DNA from: Balanoglossus misakiensis | Lineage: Eukaryota; Animalia; Hemichordata | Direction: 5' to 3' | NCBI GenBank assembly: GCA_040954595.2 | Contig: CM082582.2 | Location: 12,148,415 to 12,212,414, forward strand | Length of the DNA: 64,000 nucleotides | Made by a program: the position numbers and the translations under genes | In this document: positions 21,822 through 55,600 of the stretch, one piece after another | Layout: each line of letters starts with the position of its first letter | Numbering within the stretch: position 1 is the first letter of the stretch | The notes under the pieces: generated by a model | Told to the model about the DNA's origin: nothing | Databases searched by the model: none | What the model saw: the letters and a program-made list of their open reading frames with translations, nothing else

Positions 21822-21881
<60 letters not shown>

Positions 21882-21928
21882 AAACCTGACGCTAATGCAA
21901 GGCAGAGAAGTCCAAGTGACGACAGCAT
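20237..21928 (-). CDS. Secreted pancreatic-lipase/phospholipase A1 family enzyme (catalytic domain only), 304 aa
   Basis: 6 exons: 21886-21928, 21535-21737, 21165-21396, 20897-21036, 20573-20660, 20237-20445 (915 nt). Signal-like MLSSLGLLCLALASAAA; motifs FIIHGW, VISVDW, VHLIGFSLGAQ (catalytic Ser), RITGLDPA (Asp), DAQFVDVIHTD, GDVDFYPNGG..QPGC and CDHGRA (His). Confidence 0.93.
21822..21878. repeat. (GA)n microsatellite in lipase intron 1
   Basis: Directly visible. Confidence 0.95.
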
Positions 21929-26436: not shown

Positions 26437-26476
<40 letters not shown>

Positions 26477-31600: not shown

Positions 31601-34600
31601 AGGCATTGTGATGCCTGGTGGTCACCAAGCAATACAGATTACATTCTGTTCACCCATTCTGGGTGATTTCGATGAAGATTTCTACTTCTGTGTGGATGGC
31701 TCACCTCAGAAACTCAAACTTAACTTCAGAGGCTGTGTTATTGGACCAACATTCCACTTTGATGTTCCCAAATTGAAGTTTGGCTCCGTCTCCTATGGTA
31801 AGTAGAACACAAAATGCAGAAAAACTCTGTATGTGGTAAAAGTATTTGAAAAGATGTTATGTTCTGATCCCCATTTGCAAACTATTGTAACACCTACTTA
31901 GAAAACTTGATCTTTTATTTGAACCAGGCTTTAAGAGTACACAGAGTGCCACACTCTCCAACACATCATTGGTACCAATGACCTTTCACCTCCGTGTACC
32001 TGGTGACGGCACAGGTGAGGTGATAGATGCAGCCGTAGATGATACGCTGAATAAAACACCTGGTGTCAATCCGGCCATGGAATTCAAAATTCTACCAAGT
32101 ACAGGAACCATTGATCCACAGAGTGAGAAAGAAATCAAGGTATGAAATGTGTACTCTTCTCTTTTAATGATTCATTACATTAAACCATGTTTCTTTTGAA
32201 TTGTGTGTGAGAGAAGTTTCCTTTATTTTCCATTATTTATTTTATGTGTCAAATTCCCAGGATTACCAGCTTGTTTGGTGGTGAATCTGTCAAGTCTGCT
32301 TACAAGCATAAAGGGTACTATTTCAGTGATTAGAGATTGATAATTTTCCTTGTTCTTTCCTCAGGTTGAATTGATCTCTAACACCATCAGAAAGTATGAT
32401 ATGTCTTTGGTGGTTGACATTGAAGGAGTTGGGGAGGAGATTCTTTCATTGCCAATCTCAGCCAAGTAAGTCTTCAAATTCGTTTTCGTTTATATCATTA
32501 AAGTTTAAGGCTCAAATATATGCAAACCATTTACTAACATCATACCAATTCTGTCAAATTACTGGTTAATATATGAGTATGGTCAAAATGTTTATTAACA
32601 TTGTTTGGTTTGACTTGACAGGTGTATTGTCCCAGCCATCGCTGTAGTGACACCTATACTGGACTACAAGAGGTGTTTCCTCAATCACCCATATGAACAG
32701 AATGTTCAACTTTTCAATGACTCTGATCTGCCAGCCAAGTATGATCTGTTGCCACAAGAAGTGGATGAAATGACACCTATCCTGTACAGCAGTCCACAGC
32801 CTAGTGGCATCATCCAGCCGCATAATGTAGTCGACGTTCCACTGGTGATCACACCACAGGCACTGGAAGAACTTGACATTCATTCGTTTTTCCAAATCTT
32901 TGGAAGCGTGGAACCACCAATGGTATGTATCAGTTTCCCATTACTACGAACAGCAATATACAATGTAGTTACAGATGTTTGAATATTGAAGATGCCTGGG
33001 ACACTTCTATTGTATCAGAGAAATTGACAGTTTCTGTTGTATCTCTTTCACAGCAAGTACAACTGTCATGCATTGGAGAAGGCCCTGTGGTACATGTGAA
33101 TCCAACAGACATCGACTATGGCCAGACACCAGTACTGACAGACACCTATCGTACAGTCTTGCTGTCCAATGAATCGCTCATCCCATCTCCATTCACATGT
33201 CAAATGGTACGTAACAGTGTCTTGATAATACAGTATTGCCATATGCTTGAGCTTGTGCTGTATGGAATGTGTGGAATAAGTATTGGACAGGATGAATTTG
33301 AGATTGTAAGTCACTATATGTATGATGTGAAAACTACACGTAAACAGACATTACGTCCTGAAATGAGTCATTCTACTTCACATGTTCAACTCATATTTAT
33401 AAATCTGTTGGAATCACTTGACAGGTGCGTCCCAACTCAGTGTGGAAAGTTGAACCAGAGGAAGGTGTCATTCCACCAGAGGAATCAATGGAGCTTACAG
33501 TGACATGTAATCTGGATGATTGCATAAGGTGAGTGGGATTACCATGATTAATCCAAATCCTCATTTATCTCAGAATGTGGAAAACTCTTCTCTTTACAAT
33601 GTGAACCAAGTTCTCACTTTATTGCATTTGTCTTCTGTTTCTTTCAGATTTCAAGACAAACTTGCCATCAATTTTGTCAATAGCCAAGTGCGTACAGTGT
33701 CTGTGTCGGCATACGGCCAGGGCACAACCATTGTATCAGATCCTCCACTTACACCTGCTGTCGACTTGGGACCTCATTTCAGGTAAGCACCCCAAACTTA
33801 ATATCTTGATCATTCCAAGACTGGTCTAATAGGCATGTATCCTACTGATATTATATATTCATGATATGGTCAGGTTATGTCACGCCATGTAGTTATTCTT
33901 GATGTGATTTCCTCTACAGTAACAACCCTTGTACGCGCATCTTCAAGCTGACCAACAGAGGCCGACGTCATCAGCAGATGTTTTGGAGCACTGAGGGATT
34001 CCTTCCAATGAAGAACAGAAAACTACCTGAGATCAATCCAAAGGATGTCAAGTATCAGGTGGGCATCTCTTCAATGTACCCTCTCACCCCCATTTACCTG
34101 TGAATAGGTCCAGTTGTGCCACTGAAAACAATAGAGTTGAACAGATGAAGGGGTGTAGGGTTTGATGAAGTTTGTACTGATGACAACAAACTCTGATCAA
34201 CTTTTTTTTCTGTCTTGCAGCGCATGCCAGTGCCACCTCCACCACCAAGACCAGTGTTCTCTTTGACACCATCTAGATTTGAACTTGACCCAGGCCAAAG
34301 TATAGATGTCTTACTGGAGGGAAGTTCAGATGTGTAAGTTTCTTTTCTTTTCTTTTTGCACAGTTGATACTTTTATGCAGTAGTCATTGTGTTCTTTGAT
34401 ATCATAGAAGAAGAAAAATCTCAGGCAGTCCATTTAATCCAAAATGCTCAAATCTTCCTGTATATCCATTGCAGTCCCAAGGTGGTGAAGGAGAAGCTGA
34501 TATGCCATGCAATCATTGGAAGAGCCAGTGGAAAAGAACGGATCATGAAGACTGACATCAGTGTGGAGTTTATCAGTCCACTCATGGAGTTCTCTACAAA

Positions 34601-37600
34601 ACAGATTGCATTCAGAGTAGAAAAGGTACAAATTCTCTGGTCTTTCTTTCAGGGTAGAAACGTACTGAGTGATCATTCTCATACACAATGCAATGTATTT
34701 TCTTCCAGCTTTGATATTTTTCTCATCTCAAGTTTGGATTTTTTTTTCCTTACAGGGACCCGATGACATCTTAGAAAAACAGTATGGAGAGTTTGAAATA
34801 CATAATGTATCCTCTCTGGCTCTGACCACAAAGTTGTCACTGGAACCACCTTTCCAGATTATTCTTGAAGATGGACAGGAAGTCTCTGAGATGGCAAGTC
34901 AAATTAAGATACAATGTCTGAGTGACTTTCTTTTCAAAAAGGAATATAGCAAGCGTGAGATGTGTAAAAACCAGTGTGTAAAACTTAAGTTGCTTCAAAG
35001 CTATGGATTCTAATGATTTTAAATGTTCCCTTACAGTCCAATTCAACGTTGTTGTTTTTTCCTCTCATCACAGGAAATAATGATGGAAGTTGACCAGTTC
35101 ATGCAAATAAGGATTGTGTTTGACCCTGATTATCAGGATGACAACTACACAAGAACTGCTGATCAGCTCATAACAGTGTCATATGAGGAACATCCACATA
35201 TTGTAAGTTGAATTCTCCTCAGTTCTGTAGATCATAATTTAACAGCTCAAAAAACACAGCTGCAACTATAAACAGATACTGGATAACCAGTTACTGTCTA
35301 CTTTCTCTCTGTGTCAACATAGTCTCTGACATACTTCTGATCTGTAGTCATTATCAATCAATTTGTCTTACAGGATTATGTCAATGTCATAGGAGAAGTT
35401 TTCTTCCCAAATTTAACCTTTGAGAAGATGACCGTTGACTTTGGCTGCATTTTGAATGACACTGAAGTGACACGGTACGTGAACATCACCAACAATAGTC
35501 CCATGCCAGTCAGATACCAGTGGTCCTTCCTGGAACCAGAGACACCCATCACCATTTATCCGAGGGTGGAAGAGGAAGCGCAGATTGTGGAGGAATATGA
35601 GGAAGAGATGCCGGAAGCTGAGATACAGATTACGGATCGTAGCAGCCAGAGAGGAGATGAGGAAGCTGAAGATGAGATGGAGAAGGAAAGAGAAGAGGAT
35701 GAAGGACTTGGAGAGGAGACAAAAGTAAGAGTGTGTTTAGATTTGTGGAGTACTGACATTGTAAAGAGAAAACCTTTGTATTTGCATTGACTCGTGCAGG
35801 AATTTCATGTGATGTGTTGGAAAAAATCTGTCAAAATCAAATCAAAAGCCACCAAGATCGATGTGTACGGTGGGTCTGATCATTGATTTTTGTGTCAAAC
35901 GCAGGATGCAGAAGAAGAGAAAGAGAAAGAGCTGTTGATTGAAATTGAAGAAATAAAAGATGAGCAGATGGGTGAGGAAGAGAAACAAGATGAAACCAAA
36001 GATGTAATGGATGAAGAAAATCAGGTAAATATCAAAAAATTTGACAGTGTCAATTATCATGTCAACCTGTGTGGTTCAACACTTTCTGGTGTTTAACTAC
36101 TGTCATTATTTGGTGAAATTACATCTTTGTTTGATCTCACTTTTACAGGATGAATTAGATGGAGAGAAGGGTCGAAGCACACCAGTTGTGACTATAGAAG
36201 AAGCAATCCGTCCTCCAAGCACAGCATCATTACATGCTGGTGGTGATGGTCCAGGCAGAGGCAAACTTCCATGGCTGAGTGGCATCACAGAGCCAACTAC
36301 ATGTGGCATTGAAGAGGTCAGTTTCTGGACAATGAGAATTATGCACTTTTGTTTATTCGCTTCTCAGATCAACACATCATTAATAAATAACAATAAAGAA
36401 AGGAAGAAAATGTGCATTCTGTATATAGTGAAGTGAGCTTGATATTTTGAGTTTATTTGTATTTTGCAGGTGTTTGATATTCTGCCCTTGTACGGCATGC
36501 TGATGCCAGGTGAAAGTGAAAACATCACTTTTACGTTTTACGGTCATGCTGATATCGGCAGTGAAGCCATGGCCATATGTGATGTGGAAGGTGGACCCAA
36601 ATATGAACTGAATCTGAAAGGAGAGGCTTCCCTAGTGCAGTATCAATTTGATACGAATGATATTGACTATGGAAGAAGGGTAAGTTGACTACTTTTGATC
36701 AAGAGACTCCGTATTTAACTGTGACCGCGTTGTCTGTTCTGACAAAACAAAAAACACTTTCACTCATTTTCATAATTTTCTTTGTGAAAACAAGGAAGGA
36801 AAATGGAAAAGATGAAGTACTGAACTAACTGTCCATTTCTGACTATACAACATTAATGATTTCATTTTCTTATTACAGATGTATGACCAGATCGCTGAGG
36901 CAACAGTTGTCCTGAAGAACACAGGCAAAGTTGGTTTTGACTTTGTGGCTTTGAATATGGACCCTTCCAGCCAAGACAAGCCTGTGCCTGGCATGCCTGT
37001 GATGATCCCACATAGTGGTCACATTGAAGCTCACAGCGAACAGTCTCTGCTCATCAAATTCCTACCTGGAGTGCCAGAGAAATTCCACAAGAGCTTTGAG
37101 GTGAGTCTCAAAATATACCACTTTTGTAAGAAACATGACAACTTCGGATGTGATATAACCCTATTGCTGGTATTTTATCCAGTTATTCTGTATTTGAACT
37201 AATAATAAGTATACAAATTCTGTTTGACAGATCCAAGTTGCCCACTTTGAACCAGACATCATCAATATCCGTGGTGAGGGTGTTTTCCCAAGGGTGTCCC
37301 TGGACCTTCCCAGATTTGCTGATGAGGAAGGCCGATACACATCCCTGATGAAAGAGGCCAAGGAAGTTCTCGGCAAAGACACAAAGAAACCGGACAAGGA
37401 GGATCGACCAATCAGTGGTGTCAGTACTCCACATCCAAAAGAAGCCAGCGAAGATATCAAATCGATCGCTTCTGTGCAGGTTAGTCCATAACTATCATCC
37501 AATATGCCATTATAAATATGTCATTGTTATGTCCTCAAGTGAACGCCTTGCTTTAATTACTGAAATTTCCAGTTGAACACAATATGTTATGTATGACAAA

Positions 37601-40600
37601 TAGCCATTTACTATTCATCAACCAATGCTCTTTCCTTTGCCCTGTCTAGAAATGCATGCTATTGTCCTTTTCTGTGCACGTTGCATGACAATTTCACAGT
37701 ACTCTTTTCTCGTTACCTTTTTGATTTGTATTTCAACCACCTTCAGTTGCCATATCTGAAGGTAAGTTTGCTAGCAGCTGCAGCCTTTCTTTCCAATCTC
37801 ATTTTGCACCACTGTGCATTTCCACACAGATTTGCCACCAGCACGCTGCATTCCCACGTAGAATCATTCACACACATACATGGTTATTCATTACAACTCC
37901 CCAGTTGCTTCTTATTGTGTGAGGTTGAAAGTTTGTAAAGGGCTCTAACAGTCTGTGAATGGATTAAGCAGAAATGTGTTGATATAACAGTTTGATACTG
38001 TGTCATAATCGTTTGACCTTACATTTGCAGTGACAGTTAATACACTCACTTACATTATAAATATATGATGGTCAATAATCTCCCTTTATCAATCCTACTT
38101 TTTTGAAATCCATCCCCAAGATACTCCCAACACCTTATTCAAAGTCAGTAGACTCTCTTTTAGTTCTTCAAAGTTATTTGTTCATGCATGTATGAAGATG
38201 CCATCATACATTTAGGAAATTCCCGTAATGAAATTCATATCAGTGATTATCATTCTGTGTTCATTGGGATTAAAAGTAAAATGATATGTTCAAAGTCTTG
38301 CTAAATTAAAGTACAGTTAAGTTTTCTGTGGATATGCATGCAGTCTTAGCCTACAATCCACTCGTATACACTTGTAAACCAAGATTTGTAGTTCGCAATT
38401 TTTATAATTTGCCTTTTCTCCCCCAAATCTTAGAATGAATTCCCGTCAGAATTGGAATTACAAATGGAAGTAGAGCGTGTCATCGTGAAGGAGTTTGCCA
38501 CCGAGTACCAGTCTGAGTTAATTATGAGCCGTGCAGATTCCATAGCAGCTGCAGCAATCAGTGACCAGAATGAACAAACACCACGCACCTTCACTGGACA
38601 CACAGGACAGACACCCAAAGGGAGAAAAAACAAGAAACCCAAGTGAGTATAGAAACCATCTTACTTGTGTTCTGGCAAAATTACCACTTTATTTCTATGT
38701 ACACATTTACTCAAGTTGAGGGTCTGGTGTCCATGGAACGCTGTTGGCGTCATCACATGTATGTGGCATTTTGTTCTATAGTAGGGCTGTTTTAGCTCAT
38801 GAAGATGGCTGGTTGCAACATGAATCTGTCACAATTCTCAGATACTTTATAATTGATTGTTCTTTATTTCAGAGCCAGACTGCCTGACTATCTCCTTGAT
38901 TTTGGCTATGTTGTCCTGGGCACAGTGCGTACACACATAGTCCGAGCCATAAACACTGGACACTCTCCAGTCTCCTTCTCTGTGGATCGTCACAGCTTGA
39001 TTGGAACAGGATTCAATGTTGAATTGGATCGAGTCAAAAATCTGCCAGGATTCCCTGATCACGAGACTGTGGACTTTGTGGTCAGCTTTGATCCACGTGG
39101 GGCGAATCTGGATCTGGGAGGCGTTGAAACTCTGGTTCCAGTGAATGTAAGTAACCATAGTCTCTGCTGTGTTGCTACTCTCAAAGCCAACATACTCTTT
39201 CTGTATTCTTTCATAGGTAAAATATATTTGCTATTTTCCCTTGTTCTCCTTAATCAAAGAGAGGGATAGTGGCCACTAGCACCATCTATGCGCAGTATTT
39301 GGGATGCAATGTTTGATTGCATTTCTTGGGCCAACTCATTTCTAGACTGGCATTGTAAATGTCACAAGTTGAAACATGTATTTTTTTGTTTGCTAGATTA
39401 TAAACGGACCATGTGTGCACCTGAGATTGCGTGCCAATGTGACCATGCCAGACATGGAGATATCAACTGATACACTTGACTTTGGACAAGTTCAATGTGG
39501 ACAGTGTAGAGTCATTACTGTACAGCTTCATAATCACAAACAAGTGAGATGTGAATGGTCGTCACTACCAACAGAGAAAGAGAGGAAGAAGGTAAGAATT
39601 TGAAAATCCAAAGACAAAAATACAGGTCTGACAGAAGATTCATTTTGATCTCATATTTTGTGTTCATCAGAGGACAAACCTGTTTTTTCATTCACTGAAT
39701 ACAATCATTGCCTGAGCTTGCATGGTGCATTATAATGTTGATTATACATTTTATGAGAGAAAATTATGCTGTTGGAAAAGGTTGAAATATTTCAGCACAC
39801 AACTCTGATCCCACTCTCTCTACCTACACCAGTACATCTTGTATTTGGCATGTATATAATGTTGTAATATTATCATGTTGTCTTAGTTGAAGAGAATTGT
39901 GATATTTTTGTTATTCATTCTTCATGTTCATCAATCATCACGATGTTTTGTGGTACATTGATACAGTCAGATTGATCAACTATCTCTTGACATAAATTAT
40001 GACATTCTATTATGTTCCACTGCACCACATATATCTATTACACATGTCCATCATACACAAGTGTTTTACGTAGTGTCACATGTATATAATCACATTCAAT
40101 GTTCCATTACACATTATTTTGTCATTATTTAAATATATGGTGTGTGTTTAATTGTAAACTTTTCTCTAATGCTAACTTAAAAGGCAGAGGAAACTTCCAA
40201 GAAGGTACAAAAAAAACATGTAATTAAACTTTAATATTTTTGCATGAATTTTCTGCTTCTCTAAGAAGCATATACACTATCCTGTTAAAATAATCCTTCT
40301 GATGTCCTTTCGTGTCACTTTTTTCATGAGTAAAGGAATGTCATCATTCCTGATGTGTTTTCTCATGAAAATTGACATGAAAGATTCTTCTCTGTCCACT
40401 ATTGCATGAGTGTATCTCTGGCCAGATTGACTATTGTATGTATGTGTTGCATACATGAAATCTGTCAAAATACAGATGTCATCAGTTGAGTATAAGGTGT
40501 AGCTTGCATGTGTTGTCATTTCATGTATTAAACACAGAACAACTTTGATGCCATCATGGTATATGTACATGGTCATCAAAATATCTACTATATCTAAAGT

Positions 40601-43600
40601 TTCGTCTAACACAGAAATTTCTGAAAAATATAATACTTTCAATTAGACTAAAATGTCTAGATCATTCTCTTTCTTGTAATGTATTAAACCAGTAGATACT
40701 ACAATATATTGTGGTGGATTCAACATATAAAATCATATTGTGTAATCCATTGACATAACCCTCCAATCTCACTAACCTGGCTACAAACAACCCAGTCATG
40801 TTGCCATAACCATCTTCAAAACAAACAAAATCTGACAGACCCAAATGTCACCTCAAAAGTGGCAGAGAATTCAATACATCAGACAAGTGGTTAAACTTTT
40901 AAAGCATGTCAACCACCTGCATGAAGTATATAAACTTCTCTTCTACACATTCTTGTCATCTGTATTAACGCATTTCCTGAATCTAAATATGAATTCTGTT
41001 TTGACTGCCTGCTAGGTGGACAAGCATGTACCACTCCACTTGAAACGCAAGCTGAAACCAGACAAACCCAAGGCACGTAATTTTGAAATGATGCCACCAA
41101 CTGGTATGTTGTTACCGGGTCAGAGAATCAACGTACAAGTCAAGTTTATGCCTACAGAAGAGGTGAGTGTTGCATATTGTAGTATGAAATATCTTTGAAC
41201 ATGCACTTTAGCACAAGATTAATTACTGTGCATGTTTCTCGATATCTCTCTTTGTCTGTCTCTATCTATCTCTCAGTTTTTATTCAACTAGCATCGCTCC
41301 ATTTCCTATTTGTCTCCTGCCTACACCATTGGGTGATTAAAATAGCAGGATAATCTGACATATGGCACACACTTTTTCCTTCAGAAACTGTATGCAGATA
41401 GACTTGCAATCAGACTGGCACAGAGCAGTCAGAGAATCTTACTGATGGTCAACGGACAAGGTCTGGAACCCAGGCTGGATTTCTCCTCCTCACTGGTGGA
41501 GTTTGGACCAATATTACCTCATAGTTCAGGTGATGAGGTGGATGTCATCGTCAAGAATCCTTCGGAATATCCGGTGGAGTTCTATTCCCTGGAATATGAT
41601 AAACAGTATCTGGAAGAGGAGAAGGTAAGTGGTCCAGTAATGGAATCTATCAGTGTCTCACTCCGCCTATGTGTACAGTTGTTTATTCTTGATGATGATC
41701 AAAACGTTGATAATTCTACATACAAATTTTCTGACATCTGATAGATCCTACGTATGATGAAAGGCTATGATGAAAACAACACCATACTTCTACCACCACG
41801 GAATCCAGCTGAAAGGTTGCCTGTTGAGTTGACCGATTTCTTCGCTGAACAGCAGAAGAAACAGGAGGAAGAAGAAGAGAGAATCAAAGCAGAGGCTGAG
41901 GCAGCTGCCTTGGCTGCACAACAAGCTGCAGAAGGTGTGTGTTGTTTCAGAATTGATTGCAGGGGGTGTTGAACATTGGAAGGTGAATGAACGACAATGT
42001 ATTTTGTATCATTCTTGCATTGGTATAATGTAATAGTATATGATAAATTCAAATCAATTTCGCAACTTTCTCCCTGTCATTTCTCACCAATCCTTCCACA
42101 GCCAGCGAAGAGGGAGCAGAAAATGGACAACCCTCATCAGACGAACAAGGTGCTACAGCCATCATGACCACAGGACCATCCCGTCCTCCGAGCAGCACAC
42201 ATGACAGTGAGAAAGACAGGAAGAGTGACAGAGCAGACAGATCTGTTCTTGATAAACCGATGGAGAAGACGAGCAAGGATGTTGAAGCTGAAGATGTGGA
42301 TAAGATGGAACCCAAGGAGGATGATGAAGATGGACAAGGTAATGAGAATTAACAGAACCCCAATTGTGTGTATATAGCCCTCAATTGGAATGGACACATG
42401 TTCAAATGAAGCCTTGATTGCAGCCTAGATTGACAAAAGTGATGAAGAGTGTAAATAATGGTTTATTCTGATTCTTTGTTGCAGACAAGAAAGACAGTGC
42501 CAGCAGTATTGGAGTTGGTGAGTTAGAAATCACACCAGTCTCAGCTGCGATCGCTCGTCATCTTGGAATTGATCTCTCACCAGAGGGGAAAGCTGCCCGC
42601 AACAGAAGAGGTGTGGCCATTGTGGTCCATGGGGCACCACTCTCTGGTAAGTGTCTTTGCCGTCCGCAGATATCACATGCTGTTTGAAATAGCTGTATCA
42701 GAGTAACAGCATCTCCTGTTCATAAAATAACCAACCAGCATACGATTGTTTCTGTCAACAGGAAAAACAACAACCGCTGTTGCTTTGGCCAAGTATTACG
42801 AAGCAGCCTTATTAACAATGGATGGTGTGGTACTGGAAGCCATTTCCAACGGGGCGTCGCCGGCTGGCCTGCGTGCTAGAGAACTGTGTTCACAGACGGC
42901 CAAGGCCCAGCTCCTTAAAGAAGGTGAAGGCAGTGACGCCGAAGCCAAGGCTGCAGCTGGCGGTCTTAGTGTCGAAGCAGTCACAGCTCATGCTGCACAA
43001 GGGGGTGGTTCAGGTGAGGCTGCATTATTTTTAGTCGGTTTCAATCGTCTGTGAATTTGTGGTGTGGCACATGACTCATTAACATACAGTGAAGAGTGAG
43101 ATAATTGTACAGTGTATACTAGTAATTGGATAAGAGTGATTTTCCGGTATAGGAAGTCTTTTCTGGAAGACAAGTCAAATAAAAAATCAAGTCATACCAA
43201 GTCTGGCTCAAAATGTTACTTTGGTGTTAAAGTGTGTATTCAACCAAACATTTCGAAGGCAGTGATACTGTATTGATGATGATGATAATAGAAAGTGAAC
43301 TTGAAGGAGAAAAAGTTTGTAGTTATTGCAAAAATTGTCTGTAATTATTTAGCAGGGAAAATCAAGATAACATGCGAAACATTATTCAATTTTACTTTAC
43401 ACATTTCAAGACATTCATAACTACATATTCTCATCATTCTTTTTCATGACAAACTCATCTCTGTTACTTCTCTTTGTTAATTGTCAATCAAACCTTGTCA
43501 CTTTCACTGGTGTTTCGTAACAGCATTTGTATCATCGTACTGGTATTTCTAGCATTGTCTTGTGTGCTCTGTCACTCAAATGAATTTCAATGTCTGATTG

Positions 43601-46600
43601 TATGCATTCAAAGTCATCTCTCCCCAAGAAGAACCTCGTCAAGCTGTCTCAAGACACTCAAAGTCACGCTTGCAAGGTGGCTATACGTTACTGTCAGTTA
43701 TATGCGGCATGGCTGGTGAATTGACCCAACACCTGGTTTTTCTCCCTCATCGGTCAATCATCCCCCCCCCCCCCTCCCTCTTGATGTTCTCTACTCTGTT
43801 TCATTACCATGTACTTTTGTCATCAACACAACCCAGACCTCCAGAATGACACAACGCCATCACTTGAATGAATGCTGATTTCACGGAATCACAGCTCAGT
43901 CTCATTCCCATTCCACTGTCCGGAATCGCAAAAAGTAGAACGGGAATGGGACTGCACAGATGCGTGACTCAGCAATCATTCAAAATATAACATGAACATA
44001 CCTACAAAACTATTAGAAAAAAACATACACAAAAATGCTGAAAGATCTGCTGATATTTCTGGACAAAGATCCCGATGAAGTTAGCAAACCTGCATGGTGG
44101 TAAAATGGATAGCAAAGGTAGATTGTTTGAGCCAGGGATTGCAGTGGTGTCGCAGTGGCTAAGTCCCGCCTATGGTTGCTTGTATCGCCTGTTTTCTTGG
44201 TGTCTATATGCTGTGCTGTGCTGTGCTAGCATGTTGTGCTGTGCTGTGTGGATGTTACTCAAATCAAAAATCTCAAAAGGATGTATGGTCATTGCTATGT
44301 GTTTTTACAACTTGCAAAGTCCAAGAACTACTAACACTCTTTTGCAGCATTAACCCAATGATATTTTATTTTTAGAGAAAATAATTGCTTTTATAGTATA
44401 ATCATCGAACCTTGCTTAAATTCCAAATATCCTGGCTTAATGCTATACTGTATTGCATGAACAGTGTGCGACAAAATTCCGTTTTAATTTGGCATGTAAT
44501 TTGCTTGTGACTGTTTTGCCCAAGGATGTAGAAATGCTTATAGTCATGACCCTGCATGTTAATCCGTGATCAGTCCCCCCCTCCCCCCAGCATGCTGCTT
44601 GCTTGCTTGCTCCTTTCCCCGTAACACGACTGATTCTAGCTTCTCCGCACCCGTTTGTCTTTTTTTTTTTGCACCTTGCCTCAGGCTCTATAAGTGCTGG
44701 GGTGGGCGGACATTCAGGCGCTCACTCTGTGATCAGCAACCGCAAAACAAGCACTATTTCAGGCCACAAGCCCGCACACAGTACCATTGGTAGTAAGGCA
44801 GGAGCTGATGATGATGGCGGTGGCGGCGGCGGTAAACTGGACAAGAAAAAGGACAAGAAAGCCGATACAGACAATACGACACAGCTCAGTGGAAGCCCTC
44901 CCCCAGCTGCGCCTATTTCTCGAAGACTCAGTGTGAGTGCAAGTGTAGCTGGTGAGGAGGGCCTCATGAGCTGTATATTGCCTGAGGAACTTCTTGTTGA
45001 AATTCTGGCTGAAAGACTGCAGGTAACGTTAGCCTTGACATCTGTACTGTGTTTCACTCCCTGCCTATTTTGTGCATTCCACATAAAATAACCATGCTCT
45101 TATTTTCCATGGTTAGATTTAGAAAGATCAAAACAGGTGAAGATATGCAAAGTGGACAGTCACAAATGGCTGTTAAATGCCTCCATACATTTTCATGGGC
45201 AGAGATTTGCATTGAGAATCCCTAAGCACCGTTTCCATTCAATGTTTACTCTCCATGTTTCAGTTAAACGACTGCCATCGCGGTGTGGTCTTTGATGGCA
45301 TGGAGACACTGTTCAGTGCTTCCCTGTCAGCCTCTGCTAATGCCCTTCTCAAAGCGTTCAACAACAGAAAATACATCTACTTCATTACGATGAAACTGGA
45401 GCAGTCAGTTCTTCAAGCCAGAGAGAAACGAGAACAGGAAGAGAAAGGTAAATGCACAAATCTATCCAGATCTGCACTTTTATCATCATCTGCCTGTTCA
45501 CAATGTTCAGTGTAGCTGTGTGCATATATGTCATACTGGAAACCAACAAGTTTGTGTTGATGTTTTGTGATGCAGAACAACTTGAAAAGAAGAAGGAAGA
45601 GGAAGAGAAGCAGGCTTTGGAAGAAATGAGCGAAGATGAATATGATGGACTGAGTGAAGATAAGAAAGCTGAAGTGGATATGAAAAGATTGAAAGCCAAG
45701 AAAGAACGGCTGAAAAGGTACAAATGATGATTTTCTTTGCGAGATCTCGTGAGACTTGTTTAAATTCTGTTGCTAGCCGAGAAATGCAGGCCATGGTTTG
45801 TATGAAACCAAAACAGGTGCAGAGTTTAACGAAATGATAACATGTTGTCATTACAGAGAAATGGAAGAAAGGCTTGAAAAAGAACGCAAAGAGAAAGAAC
45901 TGAAGCAGTTGGAAGAAGAAAGAAAACTAGAAGAAGAAAAGTAGGTTTTTGTGTTTTAAATTCTCAATTCTCAATAACTTCATCAGAAGTGTTGGCTCAA
46001 TTTTGAGAATGAAATATTTCGTGGAAACTATATTATCAAAAGCACAGGCTAACATGAACTAAATATAAGTGCCGTCAGAATTGTTACTTTTTGCCGGTAT
46101 TTGTCCACCAGGTTGAAGCATAAGAAGGGACACAAAGGCAAAGACAAGGAAAAGGATGGCAAAGATGGAAAGGGTGGGCCCCCTGGTAAGAAAAGCCAAG
46201 ATACAAAAGTGGGCGGAGCAGCCGGCAGCAAAGAGACAGTGAAACAAGCGGATAAACACAAAGAGAAAGACAAGGAAAAGGAAAGAGAGAAGGATAGAGA
46301 GACATCCGATCACGGACTGAAAGCTGCTCCATCTCAACTGACGGATAGGCCGGAATCTCACGGTACAGCCGGAAGTGAAGTTCTACTGGATGAAAGTGGA
46401 AAGTAAGTTAGCCCTTCAGAGTTGGTTTGTACAGTGCACATAATCAACCCTTTCACCACTGTGGTTTGGTCCACATCCATTGTTTTCTTGGAAAAGGTGG
46501 ACCTCTATGGAGGAATGTGGGGGTGAAAGGGTTAGAGACAGCATTGCCTGATGAGTTGACACACACATACCCAACCCACCACTGCCATCCTCTGTTAGTG

Positions 46601-49600
46601 TTTTGTTTATTGCAAGTGGATCATACTGAGCGTTTCCAGTGGTATGTTGGAAAGCTGTACATGTATTGGAAATAGCCATGCACTGTTTAAAATTTCACGA
46701 AAAGAAAACATTATTCGGCACCTGTATGAATCAAAGGAGGAATTTAATTGGCGTTCACAAACCCTTGAGAAAGCTGAGTTACACCAACCCTTCAAGACAC
46801 ATCCTGCTTTCCTGTGGGTTTTTTTTCTGTTGTTGTCAACCAGTCCTGTATTTTTCTTTTCTTTTTTATGTTTGTTCAACACTAACCATACTTCTGTTGT
46901 TTATAAAACTGTCCATGTATCATATTTGTTTACATGCCTTAGTCCTGGAAAGGTTAGCATTTTGTCATTAGTGGCAATAAAGCAAGTCTGGTAAGATACA
47001 CATGGATTTGGAATTCTACTCTGCAGTCTCTTGTTATTATCACCTTTCCTCTTTCTCTGTATATCTAATGTTTGTAAAATGTATAAAAACTTATCACTCT
47101 TGTATCTTCAAATGAGGTATTATTCTAAAGAGTCCATTCTATCACTGTCTGGTTCATTTAGAGAGTAGCAAACACAACAACAGTTAGTATACTAGGTCAC
47201 ATCTTAGAAAGATATTAGAGTCGCAATGTAAAAAAAAATTCCTGATGTCTTCAATTTTAGTCTAGCATTCACGATATGTTTTATTTGGATATGAAAAATG
47301 AAAATGAGGTCTTCTTTGATCCAAAAGAGCTCACATGCATGATAAGTGAGAATGCATGTTCTTTCTCTTTGGTATCAGTTTGCATTGGAAATTGTCTCAG
47401 TGAAATTAAGAGTCCCATGGCCACATTGCATTGAAAAGTTCTATACACTGATAGTCTTTTTGTTTTTCAGGAAACGCAAGGGTGGAAAGAAAGATGAAAA
47501 GGGTCGTCCGATTTCAACTGAAGTGGCCTCCAAAGAGACTGTAGCTGAAGGAGATGAAAAGGACCCTGCTAGGGAAGCAGAGATCATCCTCAACAATCGA
47601 TTCCGGGCATTCGAACACTGCCAGAAGGATATCGACAAGCTGTTAAACCGATGGGACAGAACGCAGGGTGTGGTCGTTCCAGATCCAACAGCTGATGCCT
47701 CAGACGTCGATGAACAGCAGATTCCAGTCCATCCGCCGTCGGGAAAGAAACTGAAGGGACGCGACAAGGAGAAAGAAAGAGAGAGACAGGAGAGAGAACG
47801 CATGGAAAGAGAGAAAGCTGAGAAAGAAAAAGCCGAGAAGGAAAAGGTAAAGAAAGAGAAGTTGTACTGATGGATACATTTACATTTATCTATATGTTTT
47901 TGTTTGTGTTGCTATCATGCCTACTTCAGTACAATAACAAAACTGATATCAAATCTGTGCAGAAACAATCATTAAAATACTATTACTACCTGAAAATCAC
48001 AACATGAGAAGTACTTTCAATAAGAGAGAACATGACATTGACCTTGCAGGCAGCAGCAGCGGCAGCTGATGGTCAAGGTGAGGGCACTGAAGGTCAAGAC
48101 ACTGTTGACGGAGAAGAAAAGAAAGACGAAGAACCCAAGAGTGACGTTGGAGTGCCACATATCCTGATGGATGCCAGTGAATTAGATGCACAAATGGGAC
48201 AGAAGATATTGGATACTGGCAGGTTGCCTTCTGCAGTAGAGGTTCTGGATGGCTTAGGGCTAGGTCCTAGTGGTCCACCAATACCACCCCCTGCCAATTT
48301 CTCAGTGGTTCCCTATCCTGTCAAGCGTAAACCCCCACCTGGTGGGGAAGTAGCTGCTCATTATGTCTACGTGGCGTCCTCACCTGATGATCCGTAAGTA
48401 CTCGATCTGTGTATATACGTGTACAATGTCAAGTTCTCTGTGATCATCATTTAGATATCAGAATTGCAGAAGTAGACTGCCTTGTTTGTTCTGGTAAAAG
48501 GAATCAGTTTTCAGCAATTTCTACATTTTCTATTTTATAGTAATATTGGTGTGGAAGAGAAACCCAAAGAACCTGAAGCGGAACCTGAGTCTGCAACTCC
48601 TGATAAAGGCAGGGAAAAGGTCAGTCCTGTATACTCTAGTCCTGTCACAGGATTCTATACATACATCAACATATACACACATAGAGCAAAAATGTCATGT
48701 CATGTTTGAAAATTAAACGATGCCCCATCAAGTAAAAAATGAATTTTTAGTTTTAATAACATTAACAAGGTTCAAAGTAAAAATCAGTATTTAATGGGAG
48801 ACTATCATCATTATCAGACAAGTGTGAGTGTTGGCTTTTGATGTCAGTATTGATAATTGATAAGACTATGATGTGTGTTGCTTTAATAGGAAGAGCATGC
48901 AACCCCTACTGGTAAGGGCAAAAGTAAAGACAAAGGAAGCAGAGCTGGTGCTGAGAGTCAGAGTGGAAGACGAAAATCTGCCGGAAAATCCCGGGCGCGA
49001 AAAGGATCCCTGACTGTGACCTCACCACCACCAGGTACGACCACGCCCATGTCAGATGCTGATGGTCAGAGCAGTACAACTGGTGATACAGCTGCTTTGC
49101 AAGAACCAAAGAATCCAAAGTAAGTCTGGGTTTATTATGAGAGAAATTTATCTCAATTAACTAGTTTTCAACAAAAGATACAGTGAAATAAAGTTGACTA
49201 AAAATCTAAAGGCCAGTTTTCGAAATAATGTACCCTGTCTCCCCTGTCATTCATAATTCCGTCATGATCACTCCTGTTACAGATTATCCATATTCCGATG
49301 GATTGTTCCTGCCAATGGAGAAGTGGTCCTGCGTATCCGCTTCCAGTCTGAGGAACTGGGGCAGTTTGATCAAACTCTGAACTTTGAAATTGTCGGAACT
49401 CGTCGACGTTATCAACTGTATTGTCGTGGAATCTGTTCCTTCCCAAATATCAGCAGAGAACCAAGGTGGGTACTCGATTGAATTACTGAATTCAGAAAAA
49501 AAAGTTGAAGAGAGTGGCTCGTTATGTTGCAGTACACATGGCATGCTAAATGTTTATTAAATGACATTTCTGTCGTTACAGAATTGTGTTCCCTCACCGC

Positions 49601-52600
49601 AAGAAGAGCAAGAAGATCGACGAAATTGTCCACAAGAAGTACATCCTGAACAATGAGACATTGGAGTTCGGACCGCTCCTTGCCGGCAAAACGAGAGACC
49701 GATACAAAGAAGGCAGATATCCGGAAAACCTGGAGAAGCTGGTAGTATTGAACACATCACCCTTGGATGCAGATATCAGTTTCTGCTTCCAGACAGACAG
49801 CCAGGCAGAAACATGGTTACTGGATCCTCCAAACATGATGTTGAAACCAGGAGACTCTCAGGTTTGTCTTCAAGAAGACATCACTGTAAAATTATTTTTC
49901 ATTTAGAAGAACAAAACGTCTCTTCCCATGTTCATAAGTAGCATATTCTGTATACCTTTTAACTGAAACTATTTTTTCTGGCCGTATAGGAACTGACTGT
50001 CTGGGCATACCCGAAGAACAAAGGTTTCTTTGAAGACTGTATCGTGTGTTGCATTCGAGAGAATCCTGAGCCCATTCTGTTCAAAGTGTCCTGCTATGGC
50101 GTCCGACCGGAATTAGAACTAGACAAGAAACAAATACATTTTGAGAAAGTACTCCTGCATAGGTAAGACTATACTTCCATTCTATCATAGCTTTTCATAT
50201 TGTGTGGTGTATGTCTCTAAAATCTCCAGTAAGATGCTGTTTCATTATAATTCATTAAAAGTGTTTGAACATTCTGTTTCTTTGACAGAAAGGACACAAA
50301 GACTGTATACCTGCGTAACAGCACATTGCTACCAGTAGCCTGGAAGATCAACGGTCTGGAAAACCTAGGAGATGATTTCTCAATGCCCAATGAATCTGGT
50401 GTCATTGAACCCAAGTCAGAATATGCTTTGAACGCTCATTTCAGAGCGATGAAAGCCATTAATCTGAGGAAGACTATAAGACTTGAGGTGAGTAGGCATT
50501 TGGATTCTGTTTGCAGTATCAGGCTATGTTTATCAGACCATTTAACTCCTTACACCACACATCACTGATGACTGAAACTCTCCATGAAGAACATTTAACC
50601 TTGCACACAATTATTTTCACACAACACCTAATTCACTTTTCTGTGTTGTATTCCATATAGGTCTCAGATGTGGACAACATTATCGGTCTCTTGCAAACTG
50701 AGAATATCTTGGTGCAAGCTGAAGCTTATGATGTGGCATTGGATATGAGTTTCCCCAAGGGTGCAGATGGTGGCTTAGACTTTGGTGTCATACGTGTCAT
50801 GGATGAGACGAAACAGACATGTTCACTCAAGAACAAAGGCAAATACGAAATCCAGTACAGCTTTCAGTTTGAGCAGAGCGATTTCAACAAAGATGTCTCC
50901 TCACTGTTTTCTGTGATACCCCAGAAAGGTACACTGATCAACAGTGACAGACCAACACAAGTACAGGTCATCTTTAGGTCACGCGAAGAGGTCACCATCA
51001 AAGATCAACCTGTTCTTAAATGTCAGGTAAGAAAAAACTTAATATGATCCATTGTTTCTATGCATTACAGATATATCACACAATATGTAAAGTTATCTCT
51101 CCAAATGTGGATCACTCATCATATGTTTATTTCTACCATCTTTGACCAGGTCATTGAACCCAACATTGCTGATGGTGGTGAAACCATAGCCAGTATTCCG
51201 GTCAAGTTGAGTGTACGATCCGTCTTCAGCAAGTACACCATCTCTCCCGTCAGCGATATCAACTTTGGATCCATGTTCCTCAACCAGCGCAAATCCCGGA
51301 ATTTTGTCATCGAGAACAAAGGAGAGTTTGATTTCAAATACTCCATCACCAAGATGATCAAAGACATTCCGATACAAGCACAACCACAGAGAGGCAGAGC
51401 GTAAGTATTCATTTCTGCCAAATTTTACTCTGTACTCATAGCTAGTATTGTAGTGCTATTGTTGTACAACTATAGAACTGTAGAGATATATTTAATGTTC
51501 CGTCTGTCTACTTCAGCTCTTTAATCATCTTGACCAGTGACCAGCTATTATCTGCATCACTGCTCTGCAGGATCACTGTCCATTAGACTACCACCATGGT
51601 ACACACACAAAAATCTTCAATGTTTTTGTGTTTCTCACATTGCATTCATATGAAGTAACACCACTGTTTTGAATTGTGGTGGCTAATACCAAATGTTGGT
51701 CTTCTGATGTCTGTGCTGTTACACCTCAGTCAAGATCAATAGCTGAAAAAAAAACCTCATACACAATACAAACTCTAACTATGAGCGAAATCCTAGTCAC
51801 CAGTTCCACAGAATGGAAAGCTTTTCTGTCATAAAAAGATAGTAAATCCCATGAGCAACCATTCAAATACATATAAGTGCCTTTATGCCATTAGAACCAT
51901 AAAATTGGCATTTTAAAGCTACTTTTGTTCATGCCTGCATGTGCCATGCTTTGCATAATGTTTGTATGGTTGACATTAACTTCAAGTACTTGCTTGCTTG
52001 CTTGGCATGGCATCTTGTGCAATGCTTTCTAGGGGTTCCAAGGCTTCCACTAGAGCATCTCTTCAAGTTCCTAATTTGAGGTACAGTAGATCTGTCACCA
52101 ATGTATGTGTGCCACTCTAATAGTAATACCACGGCTAACTCTTCTGAGAAAGGGGACAGCTGGCTGCTAAACCAGCTAACATTTGGTGTGACTCAACTCA
52201 CCATTAATCACAGTTTTCAAAGTAGCATTAGGGCTGACTGTAACTCTGCACATTATACCACAACCACTGTGCACTGCACATTACACACACGCACGCTAAC
52301 TAACAACATAGCAACAATTTAACTAATGTCACATTGATTTTGAATGAGTTTTTAGTACCCACTAACTTGATTCACCCAATTGTGCCACAATTAACACATG
52401 GTAACCGCAACATAGATTCTAATATCAAATTCTCTTTCAGGTATCATTGTACAGTCATTAGATGTACTTCCTGGCTGCTGTAGGCATAGTGAAGGCAGCC
52501 AAATTCTAGTATATGACATATATTCCCCTGTCATCCAGTACTTTCACATTGTCCTGGCCCACGCACACTCCCACCTGTCCCACTGTCACAAAACCATGCA

Positions 52601-55600
52601 TGCTGTTTGCAGTGATATATATATATATTTTTCACCTGTGTGTTGTTCCAGGCAAGTACCAGGTAAACGAACCCGCTCACGAGATGGGTCCAGTTCTGGA
52701 CGCTCCATCGCCAAACCTAAGAGAGCCGAATCCATAAGGTAGGACTGCACCCACCTTCCATATTCCCATCTCACAAACCACCAAAACCATCATCCTGATT
52801 CCTTGAATGTATACATCCAGTCAACCAAAACTCATCTGTATATCATTTCTTATCAGCAGTTGAGTATTTCTTTCGAAAACCTCCTTGCTCCTAGCATGGA
52901 AGGTGTATCATTGGGAAATAGACAAACTGTGGTTTTATATGGTGTACTAGCTGGCAATTATCTTGGTGTCTAAGTGAACTGGTGATGATTTACTACATGC
53001 CAGGGTGGTTTATAGTCAGCTGTGATGACAATAATCAATATCAAATGTAATTCTTCTTTCCACAAATCCTGCTGGTTATACTGTTATTTACTACTTATCC
53101 CCATATTCAAGGTTTTCACAAAGGTAAAGATGACTGACTTCTATAAAGAAGTGAATGATCATTGATTTGCTGTGCCATTCATTCTTCACTCAATCTCTCT
53201 TTCTCTCTTAAAACCAAGGTTTGTTTATTTCAGTGGATTTGGTGTGTGAATAACAACTGGAAATCCTGTCTCATCTCATAATTCCAGCTTCAAGATTCTC
53301 TCTTAATAATCATGGGTTCTAATTTTTCTCTTTCTCTCTCCTTATGATTGGTCTCTCTTCCTGTGTTGATTGGGGGAAAATTACAATGCATCTGACACTA
53401 ACTATAAGTTTTGTGTTGAGTGAACTGTCAACACTGCACGTGGAACTTCACAATACCCACTGCCAGATATAGCCTTTTTTCTCATTCTTTGTTTTTACGA
53501 TCCTCTGCAGGCAAGAGATGGGTGGCGGTAACCAGACGCGTCTTCAGCTAGGGCCATTCACCGTGTATCCTGCATTTGGACTTGTTATGCCCGGAGCACA
53601 GCAACAGATACAAGTAGACTGTGCTCCTGAAATGGTTGGCAAATCAGAAGAGGTAAGCAGGCCAGGGCATAATAAGAACTCATTTCATGATAGATACATG
53701 AACATAGATACAGCTACCATTGATAATTATCCAGATGACAATATCATGAAATTACATCATCCCAAAAGTGCAGCTGTGAGAGTCAAGGATAGTATACTAA
53801 ACGTCATGTTTTTACTCTCTCTAGGATGTGAGTATAGACATAACAGACCGCGATCCAACTGATCATCCGCAAGGCATTCCGTACAAACTCATTGCGGAAG
53901 CCTGTGTTCCAGGCATAGACATCACGGACATCGGATCCATCTTTGAAGAGCATCGCATCTGTAAGAACCTGAGTGTGTTCCTCAATAACCACACTCTGGA
54001 ATTAGACAGTGGTGGAGTCTATGGGGAGGATGAGAACAAGTTTGTCTTTGGCAATGTCATCGTGGGAAGGAAAGCAAAGGCTAGGTTCAAGATTGTCAAC
54101 AGCAACAAGGTAAAGTATGACAATTGCATGCAGCTAGACTTTTGGAGCATCTGGTATGAAGACAAAAATATACTACAAAAACCACTGAAAACCCCAGGAA
54201 GACTGCATAATGCATACAGATAGACACATACTCATCCAGTCAATTTACATTTGTTGATTCTTTTTCCAGGTTCCATGTGATGTTGTGTTTTCATGCAAAC
54301 CAGTGTCCTCCAAACCATCAGCCAAGCTTCAAGACATTTTTGAGCTGGAGCCAAACCGAGCATCCATACAAGCTCACAGCCACACCTACGTGACTGTCAA
54401 ATTCACACCACCATCAATGCAGGTAAGTAGTAACAAACTCATTAGCACAATTACATTCAGTCAATTCAAATCTGCAAATTGCAAGTAATGGTATTTTCAT
54501 GTGGCCACCCTGTGAAACTCTATGATTGGCTAGATCTCAACTTTCCTTGGTAATTAACTGTGGCTGTACATGTATTTGTATAGGTGACCATGTACCTTTA
54601 ACTGATATTGCACTCTTTGATCATTGATGTTATCAGACGTACACAGCCTACTTTGAGGCTGCTATTGATGGACTGTCTGGTGCACTGGCCAAACAGCGCA
54701 ACTTGGCATTTGAAGTTCAGGGTGAGGGTAATCTGCCTCGCATCTCCATCATCAAACCTGGCATCCGTAACAAGAAGGGAAATCCCCTCATGTTGTTCAA
54801 GAGAATCCTTGTCAGCCGCGTCCAAACCCTACCACTGTGTTTCAGAAACGAAGGCACTCTACCCACTAAAGTAAGTTTTGAAACCTTTCCTTCATGTCAG
54901 TGTGTATAAGGTTCATTTGAATTCAATTCTGAAGCAATTATACTATATTGATCACAAAGGAAATGTCACAGTACTATTGTTTAGCAGAGGAAACGTTAAC
55001 GTTTCAATGTATTTTACACCTCTTTCAGATTGACGTTGATTTAGACAGTCCTGATGGGGCATTCACTCTAAAGAATGATGCAGAGACTAGACTCATCTAT
55101 CCTATTGTGTCAGAGTCTTCATTCGCTAGTCTGGATGGTAAGTCAAAAGGAAGGAAAGGTTAGCTGAATGAATGAATGAATGAATGAATGAATGAATGAA
55201 TGAATGAATGAATGAATGAATGAAATATACTCTTTGCAAGTTTCTAGTTTGTTAATGGATGGGTTGCCTGTACAATTTGCCACTTTGTCTTCAAGTCACA
55301 AACTACAGCAGTAACCTGACTCACATACTATTTCTTTGTAATTGAACAGAGGAAAGCTCAGCAGCAAGGAGACCACACACAGCCTCCTTGATTGTAGATG
55401 TGGGCGGAGAGGCCCACTTTGATGTCAGCTTCAAAGCCATTGATGCCATTCGCAGTCAGGGCACCATCAAGATACATGTACATGACAACCAGTATGAAGA
55501 GTCTCTGATCCAGTTAGTGGGAGAGGGTTACCAAGACGATATCACTCTAGATAATATCCATGGTTACATCAATGAAAATGAAAGCGTGGAAACGCTGCTA

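What the first reader, a model, noticed from the sequence alone, without database searches (positions are those of the whole stretch)
37480..53510. Possible coordinated microexon programme in HYDIN: every long intron holds a frame-preserving mini-exon
Seen in sequence: by my reading, HYDIN coding-region introns are under about 300 nt except six: 37480-38433, 39592-41015, 43014-44684, 46403-47470, 51401-52651 and 52739-53510. Each of the six contains an AG/GT-bounded segment whose length is a multiple of 3 (15, 21, 63, 48, 48 and 12 nt) and which has no stop in the phase set by its neighbours (0, 0, 1, 2, 2, 2). All six insert into charged or low-complexity linkers rather than ASH/beta domains. 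Established knowledge: regulated microexons are typically 3n, lie in lengthened introns and remodel protein-interaction surfaces. Inference: tissue-specific HYDIN isoforms (e.g. sperm flagellum versus ciliary band versus neuronal cilia) may tune the central pair apparatus. I know of no description of such a set for HYDIN, but cannot search. Short AG..GT 3n segments also arise by chance in kb-sized introns, so some candidates may be false.
Basis: partly seen in the sequence, partly recalled or inferred. Interest (0 to 1): 0.8.

Follow-up and report, generated by a model that had tools for sequence, protein, structure and literature searches.

The report
Optional mini-exons in acorn-worm HYDIN
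The gene for the cilia scaffold protein HYDIN in a likely acorn worm has six unusually long introns, each holding a short in-frame exon-like piece; four resemble inserts annotated at the same spot in related acorn worms, starfish or feather stars, so they are likely optional exons that remodel flexible loops of the cilium's central apparatus, although shared regulation is untested.

Summary
Observation confirmed. HYDIN (28609-63113, 76-exon core) has 69 introns of 106-270 nt and six of 772-1671 nt, each holding a 3n, stop-free AG/GT segment of the stated length. That criterion alone is chance-level: shuffled introns give 15-60 such segments each. Comparative evidence carries the finding. Annotated ambulacrarian HYDINs have similar peptides at the same junctions for sites 2, 3 and 5 (0 of 300 shuffles match as well) and site 6 (P=0.013). 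Glandiceps isoforms also use a second, 36-nt donor present in the window, and Saccoglossus/Glandiceps models use an internal acceptor at 44763. Isoform-variable sites in other invertebrates hit 5 of 6 long introns versus 4 of 69 short ones. Sites 1 and 4 have good splice signals but no sequence homologue. Corrections: the inserts lie in loops inside ASH or ADK-like domains, not between domains; only three are 27 nt or shorter; coordination is unproven. No RNA run was listed. UGC motifs and long AG-free zones suggest eMIC/Srrm234-type control of some. Verdict: real cassette-exon hotspots, a new member of a known kind; the scan's earlier notes had nothing on HYDIN.

The parts
28609..63113 (+). 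HYDIN coding region, 76-exon core model, 5341 aa
   Evidence: 85.7% identity to Glandiceps talaboti HYDIN, 79.5% to Saccoglossus; exon 50661-51026 hits mouse HYDIN 9ijj_4G at E=1.4e-40
37480..38433 (+). Long intron 1 (954 nt, phase 0, after core aa 1577)
37747..37761 (+). Candidate cassette 1, 15 nt (LPYLK); consensus donor AAG/GTAAGT; no homologue found
   Evidence: best of 198 AG..GT segments; shuffle P=0.002-0.005; absent from 10 of 10 ambulacrarian models
39592..41015 (+). Long intron 2 (1424 nt, phase 0, after core aa 1803); five TGCATG motifs
40184..40204 (+). Cassette 2, 21 nt (AEETSKK); weak acceptor, UGC at -14, CTAAC branch-like motif, 108-nt AG-free zone
   Evidence: Glandiceps AEEASRK, Saccoglossus AEVAARK, 0/300 shuffles match as well; features
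40205..40219 (+). 15-nt extension of cassette 2 to a second donor (36-nt form, adds VQKKH)
   Evidence: Glandiceps isoform X1 vs X2 differ only by VQKRH at this place; 0/300 shuffles; donor score 3.3
43014..44684 (+). Long intron 3 (1671 nt, phase 1, core aa 2212, inside Hydin_ADK)
43614..43676 (+). Cassette 3, 63 nt; weak acceptor with UGC at -11
   Evidence: best of 112 segments against the 20-aa insert of the older Saccoglossus model, shared AVSRHS core, 0/300 shuffles
44685..44762 (+). 78-nt optional 5' part of the next exon; internal acceptor at 44763
   Evidence: Glandiceps X1/X2 and the older Saccoglossus model lack this part, the newer Saccoglossus model has it; oyster isoforms drop the corresponding 22 aa
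46403..47470 (+). Long intron 4 (1068 nt, phase 2, core aa 2558)
46943..46990 (+). Candidate cassette 4, 48 nt; UGC at -8, donor CTG/GTAAGA, 97-nt AG-free zone; no sequence homologue
   Evidence: best of 286 segments but shuffle P=0.17; an unrelated 11-aa isoform-variable insert maps to the same junction in Littorina
51401..52651 (+). Long intron 5 (1251 nt, phase 2, core aa 3385)
52033..52080 (+). Cassette 5, 48 nt; UGC at -15 and -10
   Evidence: best of 29 segments against the Asterias insert GSRASKASFQFLR, 0/300 shuffles; Antedon has a 7-aa isoform-variable insert at the same junction
52739..53510 (+). Long intron 6 (772 nt, phase 2, core aa 3414)
53112..53123 (+). Cassette 6, 12 nt (RFSQ before R); 90-nt AG-free zone
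   Evidence: Anneissia X1 vs X2 differ by a 4-aa insert RLST here; best of 16 segments, shuffle P=0.013; longer inserts here in 8 of 16 mollusc proteins

Best explanation
The six long introns of this likely acorn-worm HYDIN gene each hold a short frame-preserving segment, and at least four are likely alternatively spliced cassette exons at old splicing hotspots, predicted to add short, mostly basic peptides to flexible loops inside HYDIN's ASH and adenylate-kinase-like domains. Shown: the intron-length split, the segments, their phase, similar peptides at the same junctions in annotated relatives, and domain-internal positions. Inferred: the introns stay long because they carry a cassette plus its regulatory elements (UGC, distant pyrimidine tract, TGCATG). 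Sites 2-5 look like weak-acceptor, UGC-type (eMIC/Srrm234-like) targets. By my own ASH count the loops belong to ASH12-18, the part that in mouse sperm scaffolds C2b and runs laterally over C2. Inclusion would leave the ASH chain intact and change surface contacts. Three supported inserts (3, 5, 6) each add an R-x-S motif, so they may add basophilic phosphorylation sites. Site 2 is predicted to lengthen a helix that projects from an ASH domain by 7 or 12 residues.
For: Length split 69 short vs 6 long. Peptide match to relatives, best segment of its intron with 0/300 shuffles as good: site 2 (Glandiceps, two donors; Saccoglossus), site 3 (Saccoglossus older model), site 5 (Asterias); site 6 P=0.013. 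Inclusion and skipping forms both annotated: Glandiceps X1/X2 (two donors), Antedon X1-X4, Anneissia X1/X2, Littorina, Mercenaria, Haliotis, Argopecten, Crassostrea. Of 53 hand-collated isoform differences in 15 invertebrate groups, some fall within 3 aa of 5 of 6 long and 4 of 69 short intron positions (Fisher 4e-5); restricted to introns in similarly variable protein context, 5/6 vs 3/41 (P=2e-4). UGC at -22..-3 in 4 of 6 candidates vs 10 of 69 constitutive acceptors (P=0.01); TGCATG 16 in 7140 nt vs 4 in 11339 nt (P=2e-4). AG-free zones 44-108 nt vs constitutive median 35. These features match those described for eMIC targets (10.1101/2021.02.24.432780, passages). Pfam and my profile place the junctions inside domains. 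AlphaFold of Glandiceps 1491-1903 (mean pLDDT 78.9) puts site 1 in a pLDDT<50 stretch and site 2 in helix 302-319 between strands of one Ig fold.
Against: No transcript evidence from this organism. Sequence-only score is weak overall (P=0.06). Sites 1 and 4 have no homologue in 10 of 10 ambulacrarian models; the Littorina insert at site 4 does not resemble the candidate (rank 28 of 56). Asterias amurensis and Antedon site-2 inserts and the Antedon site-5 insert match in position, not sequence (candidate ranks 10, 4, 15). Site 3 support rests on one superseded Saccoglossus model, and predicted models need not be RNA-supported. Species in the coincidence test are not independent and isoform lists were partial. 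The R-x-S enrichment (3 in 73 aa vs 3 in 1219 loop aa) was noticed after the fact with loop limits I chose. The site 5/6 model is low confidence (mean pLDDT 54.4). ASH numbering is my own count.
Confidence: 0.78

Rival explanations
1. All six are switched together by one regulator (for example neural Srrm234/eMIC), giving one included and one skipped HYDIN isoform.
For: All six have long AG-free zones and four have a UGC near the acceptor; all preserve frame; ciliary genes are known microexon targets in vertebrate photoreceptors (10.1101/2021.09.08.459463, passages).
Against: Sites 1 and 6 lack the UGC. TGCATG lies downstream of site 2 but upstream of sites 1 and 5. None of 10 ambulacrarian models carries more than two inserts, and Antedon has all four combinations of sites 2 and 5, though short-read models cannot show phasing.
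Confidence: 0.25
2. The cassettes are real but largely neutral: low-level exons that arise repeatedly where disordered loops tolerate insertions.
For: Insert sequences and lengths differ between molluscs and ambulacrarians at the same junctions; no such inserts at sites 2 and 5 in 10 vertebrate, 5 amphioxus and 3 tunicate proteins.
Against: Peptide conservation between enteropneust families and, for site 5, between hemichordate and starfish; both site-2 donors are shared with Glandiceps; other equally variable introns stay short and mostly lack variable exons.
Confidence: 0.15
3. Sites 1 and 4 (possibly 6) are chance AG..GT segments, and those introns are long for other reasons or hide a different exon.
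For: No homologous peptide for sites 1 and 4; shuffles reach the site-4 score in 17% of cases; the site-4 peptide is unusually hydrophobic for its charged context.
Against: Site 1 is the best of 198 segments with a consensus donor (P=0.002-0.005); site 4 is the best of 286 and coincides with a Littorina variable site; no Rfam family and no clear long repeat explains the extra length.
Confidence: 0.3
4. The segments are constitutive small exons in this species that gene models tend to miss.
For: Both Glandiceps isoforms include site 2; both Asterias models include site 5.
Against: Skipped forms are annotated in relatives for sites 2, 3, 5 and 6; acceptors of sites 2 and 3 score below all 75 core acceptors; skipped junctions align without gaps to most of 50 homologues.
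Confidence: 0.08

Closest known systems
eMIC (Srrm234 / SRRM3/4)-dependent microexons and short exons of bilaterians (10.1101/2021.02.24.432780; 10.1101/2024.09.17.613571; passages read)
   Same: Short 3n exons, weak acceptor, long AG exclusion zone, UGC close to the 3' splice site (4 of 6 here), nearby branch-point-like motif (site 2).
   Different: Dependence on eMIC and neural specificity untested; three segments exceed 27 nt; the host is a motile-axoneme structural protein rather than the ion-channel or GTPase targets highlighted there; those papers report little positional sharing between phyla, whereas here junctions recur in ambulacrarians and molluscs.
Retina microexons (RetMICs) in cilia genes, Srrm3-regulated (10.1101/2021.09.08.459463; passages read)
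   Same: Microexons that remodel ciliary proteins in loops, with upstream UGC.
   Different: Vertebrate photoreceptor sensory cilia and transport genes; HYDIN is not mentioned in that text.
Fgfr IgIII region as a hotspot of recurrent alternative splicing across Bilateria (PMC5703972; passages read)
   Same: Same gene region gains non-homologous alternative exons in several lineages, with one exon shared across Ambulacraria.
   Different: One region of a signalling receptor, versus up to six junctions in loops of a central-pair scaffold.
RefSeq/GenBank HYDIN isoform models of Glandiceps, Saccoglossus, Asterias, Antedon, Anneissia, Littorina, Mercenaria, Haliotis, Argopecten, Crassostrea
   Same: Already contain inserts at junctions 2, 3, 4 (Littorina), 5 or 6 as automatic annotation.
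   Different: Each model holds only a subset; none shows site 1; I found no paper describing them as a set.

Membership tests
HYDIN | About 5000-aa chain of ASH/Ig domains with an adenylate-kinase-like domain, full-length similarity to annotated HYDIN | tested here: met
   5341 aa; 85.7% to Glandiceps HYDIN; PF17213 on three window exons; 9ijj_4G E=1.4e-40
Microexon (27 nt or less) | Length 3-27 nt (cut-off implied by '28-50 nt RetLONGs') | tested here: inconclusive
   Met for sites 1, 2, 6 (15, 21, 12 nt); not met for sites 3, 4, 5 (63, 48, 48 nt)
Alternative cassette exon | Frame-preserving with canonical AG/GT ends | tested here: met
   All six; full inclusion gives 5410 aa with no internal stop
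Alternative cassette exon | Cross-species conservation of the exon | tested here: inconclusive
   Met at peptide level for sites 2, 3, 5, weakly 6; not found for 1 and 4; orthologous enteropneust intron DNA not available
Alternative cassette exon | Both inclusion and skipping junctions in transcripts of this species | not testable with these tools
   No RNA holder listed; both forms appear only in annotated models of relatives
eMIC/SRRM3/4-dependent exon | UGC near a weak 3' splice site with long AG exclusion zone | tested here: inconclusive
   UGC in 4 of 6 vs 10 of 69; AG-free zone 44-108 nt in 6 of 6; sites 1 and 6 lack UGC
eMIC/SRRM3/4-dependent exon | Inclusion depends on eMIC and is neural- or sensory-enriched | not testable with these tools
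   needs perturbation and tissue RNA
Co-regulated splicing programme | Correlated inclusion of all exons across tissues or on single molecules | not testable with these tools
   annotated models show subsets only and cannot show phasing

The most novel reading that the evidence does not exclude
HYDIN carries a set of ancient splicing hotspots in the loops of its C2-facing ASH12-18 segment, used in both ambulacrarians and molluscs and apparently silent in vertebrates. Cell types with different ciliary beats (sperm, ciliary band, gill, sensory neurons) would use them to install or remove basophilic phosphorylation sites and a helix extension, tuning the central apparatus by splicing rather than by paralogues.
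Probability: 0.25. Interest if true: 0.68.

Novelty: new member of a known kind. Interest (0 to 1): 0.45.

Why it matters
HYDIN is a single-chain scaffold linking the two central microtubules; truncations cause severe ciliary disease (PMC12297659, passages). If its loops are remodelled by regulated small exons, invertebrates have a splicing route to cell-type-specific central-pair variants, a testable idea for how one gene serves sperm, locomotory and sensory cilia. The case also shows that in a compact-intron genome, outlier intron length points to hidden cassette exons that public models capture only piecemeal.

Tried and rejected
This is no evidence either way. No whole genome is held. An exon-sized query with lengths 'longer' reached only proteins of 215-2000 aa. 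A 23-row alignment of exons on a full-length protein misaligned and was dropped; A3 and A4 were also unused. The metagenome scan gave 6 loci from 323 pattern matches, all distant (71-83% identity); none was an enteropneust, and I did not score their introns. Rfam: 0 matches in the window. Repeat search: no clear long repeat or hairpin that accounts for intron length (only the top 20 direct and 25 inverted shown). The filter (donor>=4, AG-free>=40, acceptor>=-2) picks exactly the six candidates, with 12-31% of shuffles passing per intron. I set its limits after seeing them, so I do not count it; the untuned version gives P=0.06. Foldseek of the site 5/6 model hit mouse HYDIN chains (E 2e-6) with TM 0.25, uninformative on the loop. 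Platypus (6 models) and Synchiropus (6 models) isoform differences do not fall at the six junctions; too few to claim absence in vertebrates. The idea that inserts lie between domains was rejected. Earlier scan notes held nothing on HYDIN.
Full report
Gene and organism. A splice-aware dynamic-programming model from ATG 28609 to the stop at 63113, with 11 exons removed by hand (10 inside the six long introns, one in a 225-nt intron), gives a 76-exon, 5341-aa open frame. It is 85.7% identical to Glandiceps talaboti HYDIN, 79.5% to Saccoglossus, 66-67% to three echinoderms and 49-62% to the other 20 proteins aligned. The window is therefore most likely from an enteropneust (inference). One exon hits mouse HYDIN in PDB 9ijj.

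Observation. All six intervals are exact GT-AG introns. Of 75 introns, 69 are 106-270 nt and six are 772-1671 nt, with nothing between.

Chance. The bare criterion is uninformative: 15-87 such segments per intron, 15-60 in shuffles. With an untuned score (donor, acceptor and AG-exclusion learned from the 69 short introns) the candidates rank 1/37, 4/68, 3/109, 1/54, 1/20 and 1/16. Only site 1 beats shuffles on its own (P=0.005), and the sum gives P=0.06. A filter that selects exactly these six was tuned after the fact and is not counted.

Comparative evidence. No RNA run was listed, so I used annotated proteins. Site 2: Glandiceps X2 carries AEEASRK and X1 adds VQKRH. These match the window's 21-nt form (AEETSKK) and a 36-nt form ending at a second donor, 40219 (adds VQKKH). 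The newer Saccoglossus model carries AEVAARK and the older one skips it; Asterias amurensis has 7 aa there and A. rubens none; Antedon has an isoform-variable 14 aa. Site 3: the older Saccoglossus model has a 20-aa insert sharing AVSRHS with the candidate, joined to an internal acceptor that exists in the window at 44763. Glandiceps uses that acceptor without the cassette, and the newer Saccoglossus model uses the outer one. Site 5: both Asterias models carry GSRASKASFQFLR; Antedon has a variable 7 aa. Site 6: Anneissia X1 adds 4 aa (RLST vs RFSQ). Scoring every 3n open segment of each intron against these inserts, the candidate (or its 36-nt form) was best in 6 of 11 comparisons: Glandiceps twice, Saccoglossus twice and Asterias site 5 with 0 of 300 shuffles as good, and Anneissia with P=0.013. 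It was not best for A. amurensis and Antedon at site 2, Antedon at site 5, or Littorina at sites 4 and 6. Sites 1 and 4 are absent from 10 of 10 ambulacrarian models.

Hotspots. Molluscs have unrelated inserts at the same junctions. Among 50 full-length proteins, site 2 carries 7-14 extra residues in 4 of 6 ambulacrarian and 4 of 16 mollusc proteins and none in the other 28; site 5 in 3 of 6 and 2 of 16; site 6 in 1 of 6 and 8 of 16 (read by eye). I collated 53 within-species differences from 15 invertebrate groups. I left out N-terminal differences, the two vertebrates, Montipora and the two-species Asterias pair, and merged fragmented events. They fall within 3 aa of 5 of 6 long and 4 of 69 short intron positions (Fisher P=4e-5), or 5/6 vs 3/41 among introns in similarly variable protein context (P=2e-4). 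Caveats: only 15 members were listed from clusters of 47, 20 and 150; Saccoglossus is two annotation versions; species are related; models are predictions.

Regulatory signs. AG-free zones are 44-108 nt against a constitutive median of 35. Acceptors of sites 2 and 3 score -1.7 and -1.8, below the weakest core acceptor (2.8). UGC lies within 22 nt of the acceptor in 4 of 6 vs 10 of 69 (P=0.01), and TGCATG (RBFOX motif, recalled) occurs 16 times in 7140 nt vs 4 in 11339 nt (P=2e-4). This resembles the eMIC-target code (10.1101/2021.02.24.432780, passages; 10.1101/2024.09.17.613571, passages, where 74-79% of SRRM3/4 microexons have the UGC). The six are heterogeneous: sites 1 and 6 lack UGC, and TGCATG is downstream of site 2 but upstream of 1 and 5.

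Where the inserts sit. Pfam Hydin_ADK matches profile 12-92 before and 100-183 after junction 3; Ig-type profiles match both sides of junctions 2 and 5/6. My own ASH profile spans 1757-1868 and 3338-3469, covering junctions 2, 5 and 6. AlphaFold of Glandiceps 1491-1903 (pLDDT 78.9) places junction 1 at the end of a low-confidence stretch between two helices, and the site-2 insert in helix 302-319 between strands 294-297 and 342-345 of one Ig fold. A weaker model of the Asterias site 5/6 domain (pLDDT 54.4) shows a roughly 77-residue unstructured loop between strands. Site 4 is in the long charged region after the ADK-like domain, with no Pfam match on either flanking exon. By my count these are ASH12-14 and ASH18. 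In mouse sperm ASH8-12 scaffold C2b and ASH13-18 run laterally on C2 (PMC12297659, passages; supplement Fig. S24 not read, so numbering may be off by one or two).

Mechanism. Most likely these are regulated cassette exons whose inclusion changes surface loops without breaking the ASH chain (0.78 for the set; about 0.9 for sites 2, 3, 5, 0.75 for 6, 0.6-0.65 for 1 and 4, my estimates). Five of six inserts are net basic and site 2 is neutral; sites 3, 5 and 6 each add an R-x-S, also present in the matching relatives' inserts (3 in 73 aa vs 3 in 1219 loop aa, noticed after the fact). Added basophilic kinase sites are a testable guess; kinase control of ciliary beat is recalled knowledge. A single coordinated switch is possible (0.25) but unsupported: no ambulacrarian model has more than two inserts.

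Novelty. Searches for HYDIN+microexon (2 papers), HYDIN+alternative splicing+isoform+central pair (16 papers, 15 listed), microexon+hemichordate (3), microexon+motile cilia+axoneme+splicing (4) and HYDIN+phosphorylation+PKA (8) showed no description in their listings; most subscription journals are not covered. Parts of the set exist as automatic RefSeq isoforms. Recurrent exon hotspots are known (PMC5703972, passages), as are ciliary microexons (10.1101/2021.09.08.459463, passages). This is a new member of a known kind, with a plausible but untested role in tuning the central apparatus.

Noticed in passing
window 44685-44762 and acceptor 44763: Alternative 3' splice site removing 26 aa inside the ADK-like domain. 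Models of Glandiceps, Saccoglossus and two oysters vary for the same stretch; cassette 3 may be used in place of it.
   Followed up: partly
window 52652-52738: The 87-nt exon between long introns 5 and 6 is itself skipped in annotated isoforms of Mercenaria, Haliotis, Argopecten and Dimorphilus, so it may be a seventh cassette here.
   Followed up: partly
window 52054-52080: An internal AG in cassette 5 would give a 27-nt form; relatives show 13-aa and 7-aa versions at this junction.
   Followed up: no
core aa 2433 (window intron 45718-45856, 139 nt): Mercenaria and Ruditapes have an 11-aa variable insert here, while the window intron is short: a hotspot apparently not used in this species.
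   Followed up: no
window about 1300-5900, + strand: Astacin-CUB gene with several tandem cysteine-rich repeats weakly like Chitin_bind_1 and a long GAT run at about 3385-3485.
   Followed up: partly
window about 9900-19730, - strand: RING plus WD40 gene (TRAF7-like is a recalled label) with an intron of about 4 kb at 15390-19510, far above the local norm; not scanned for hidden exons.
   Followed up: no
window about 20230-22100, - strand: Lipase-family gene (PF00151).
   Followed up: no
window about 23900-26500, - strand: A spliced gene divergent from HYDIN; two exons gave no Pfam match.
   Followed up: no
L003 2306-3265: Site-2 intron of an unidentified spiralian-like HYDIN holds a 15-nt AG..GTAAGT segment at about 2943-2957; introns in that locus are generally long, so it is not a length outlier (read by eye).
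   Followed up: no
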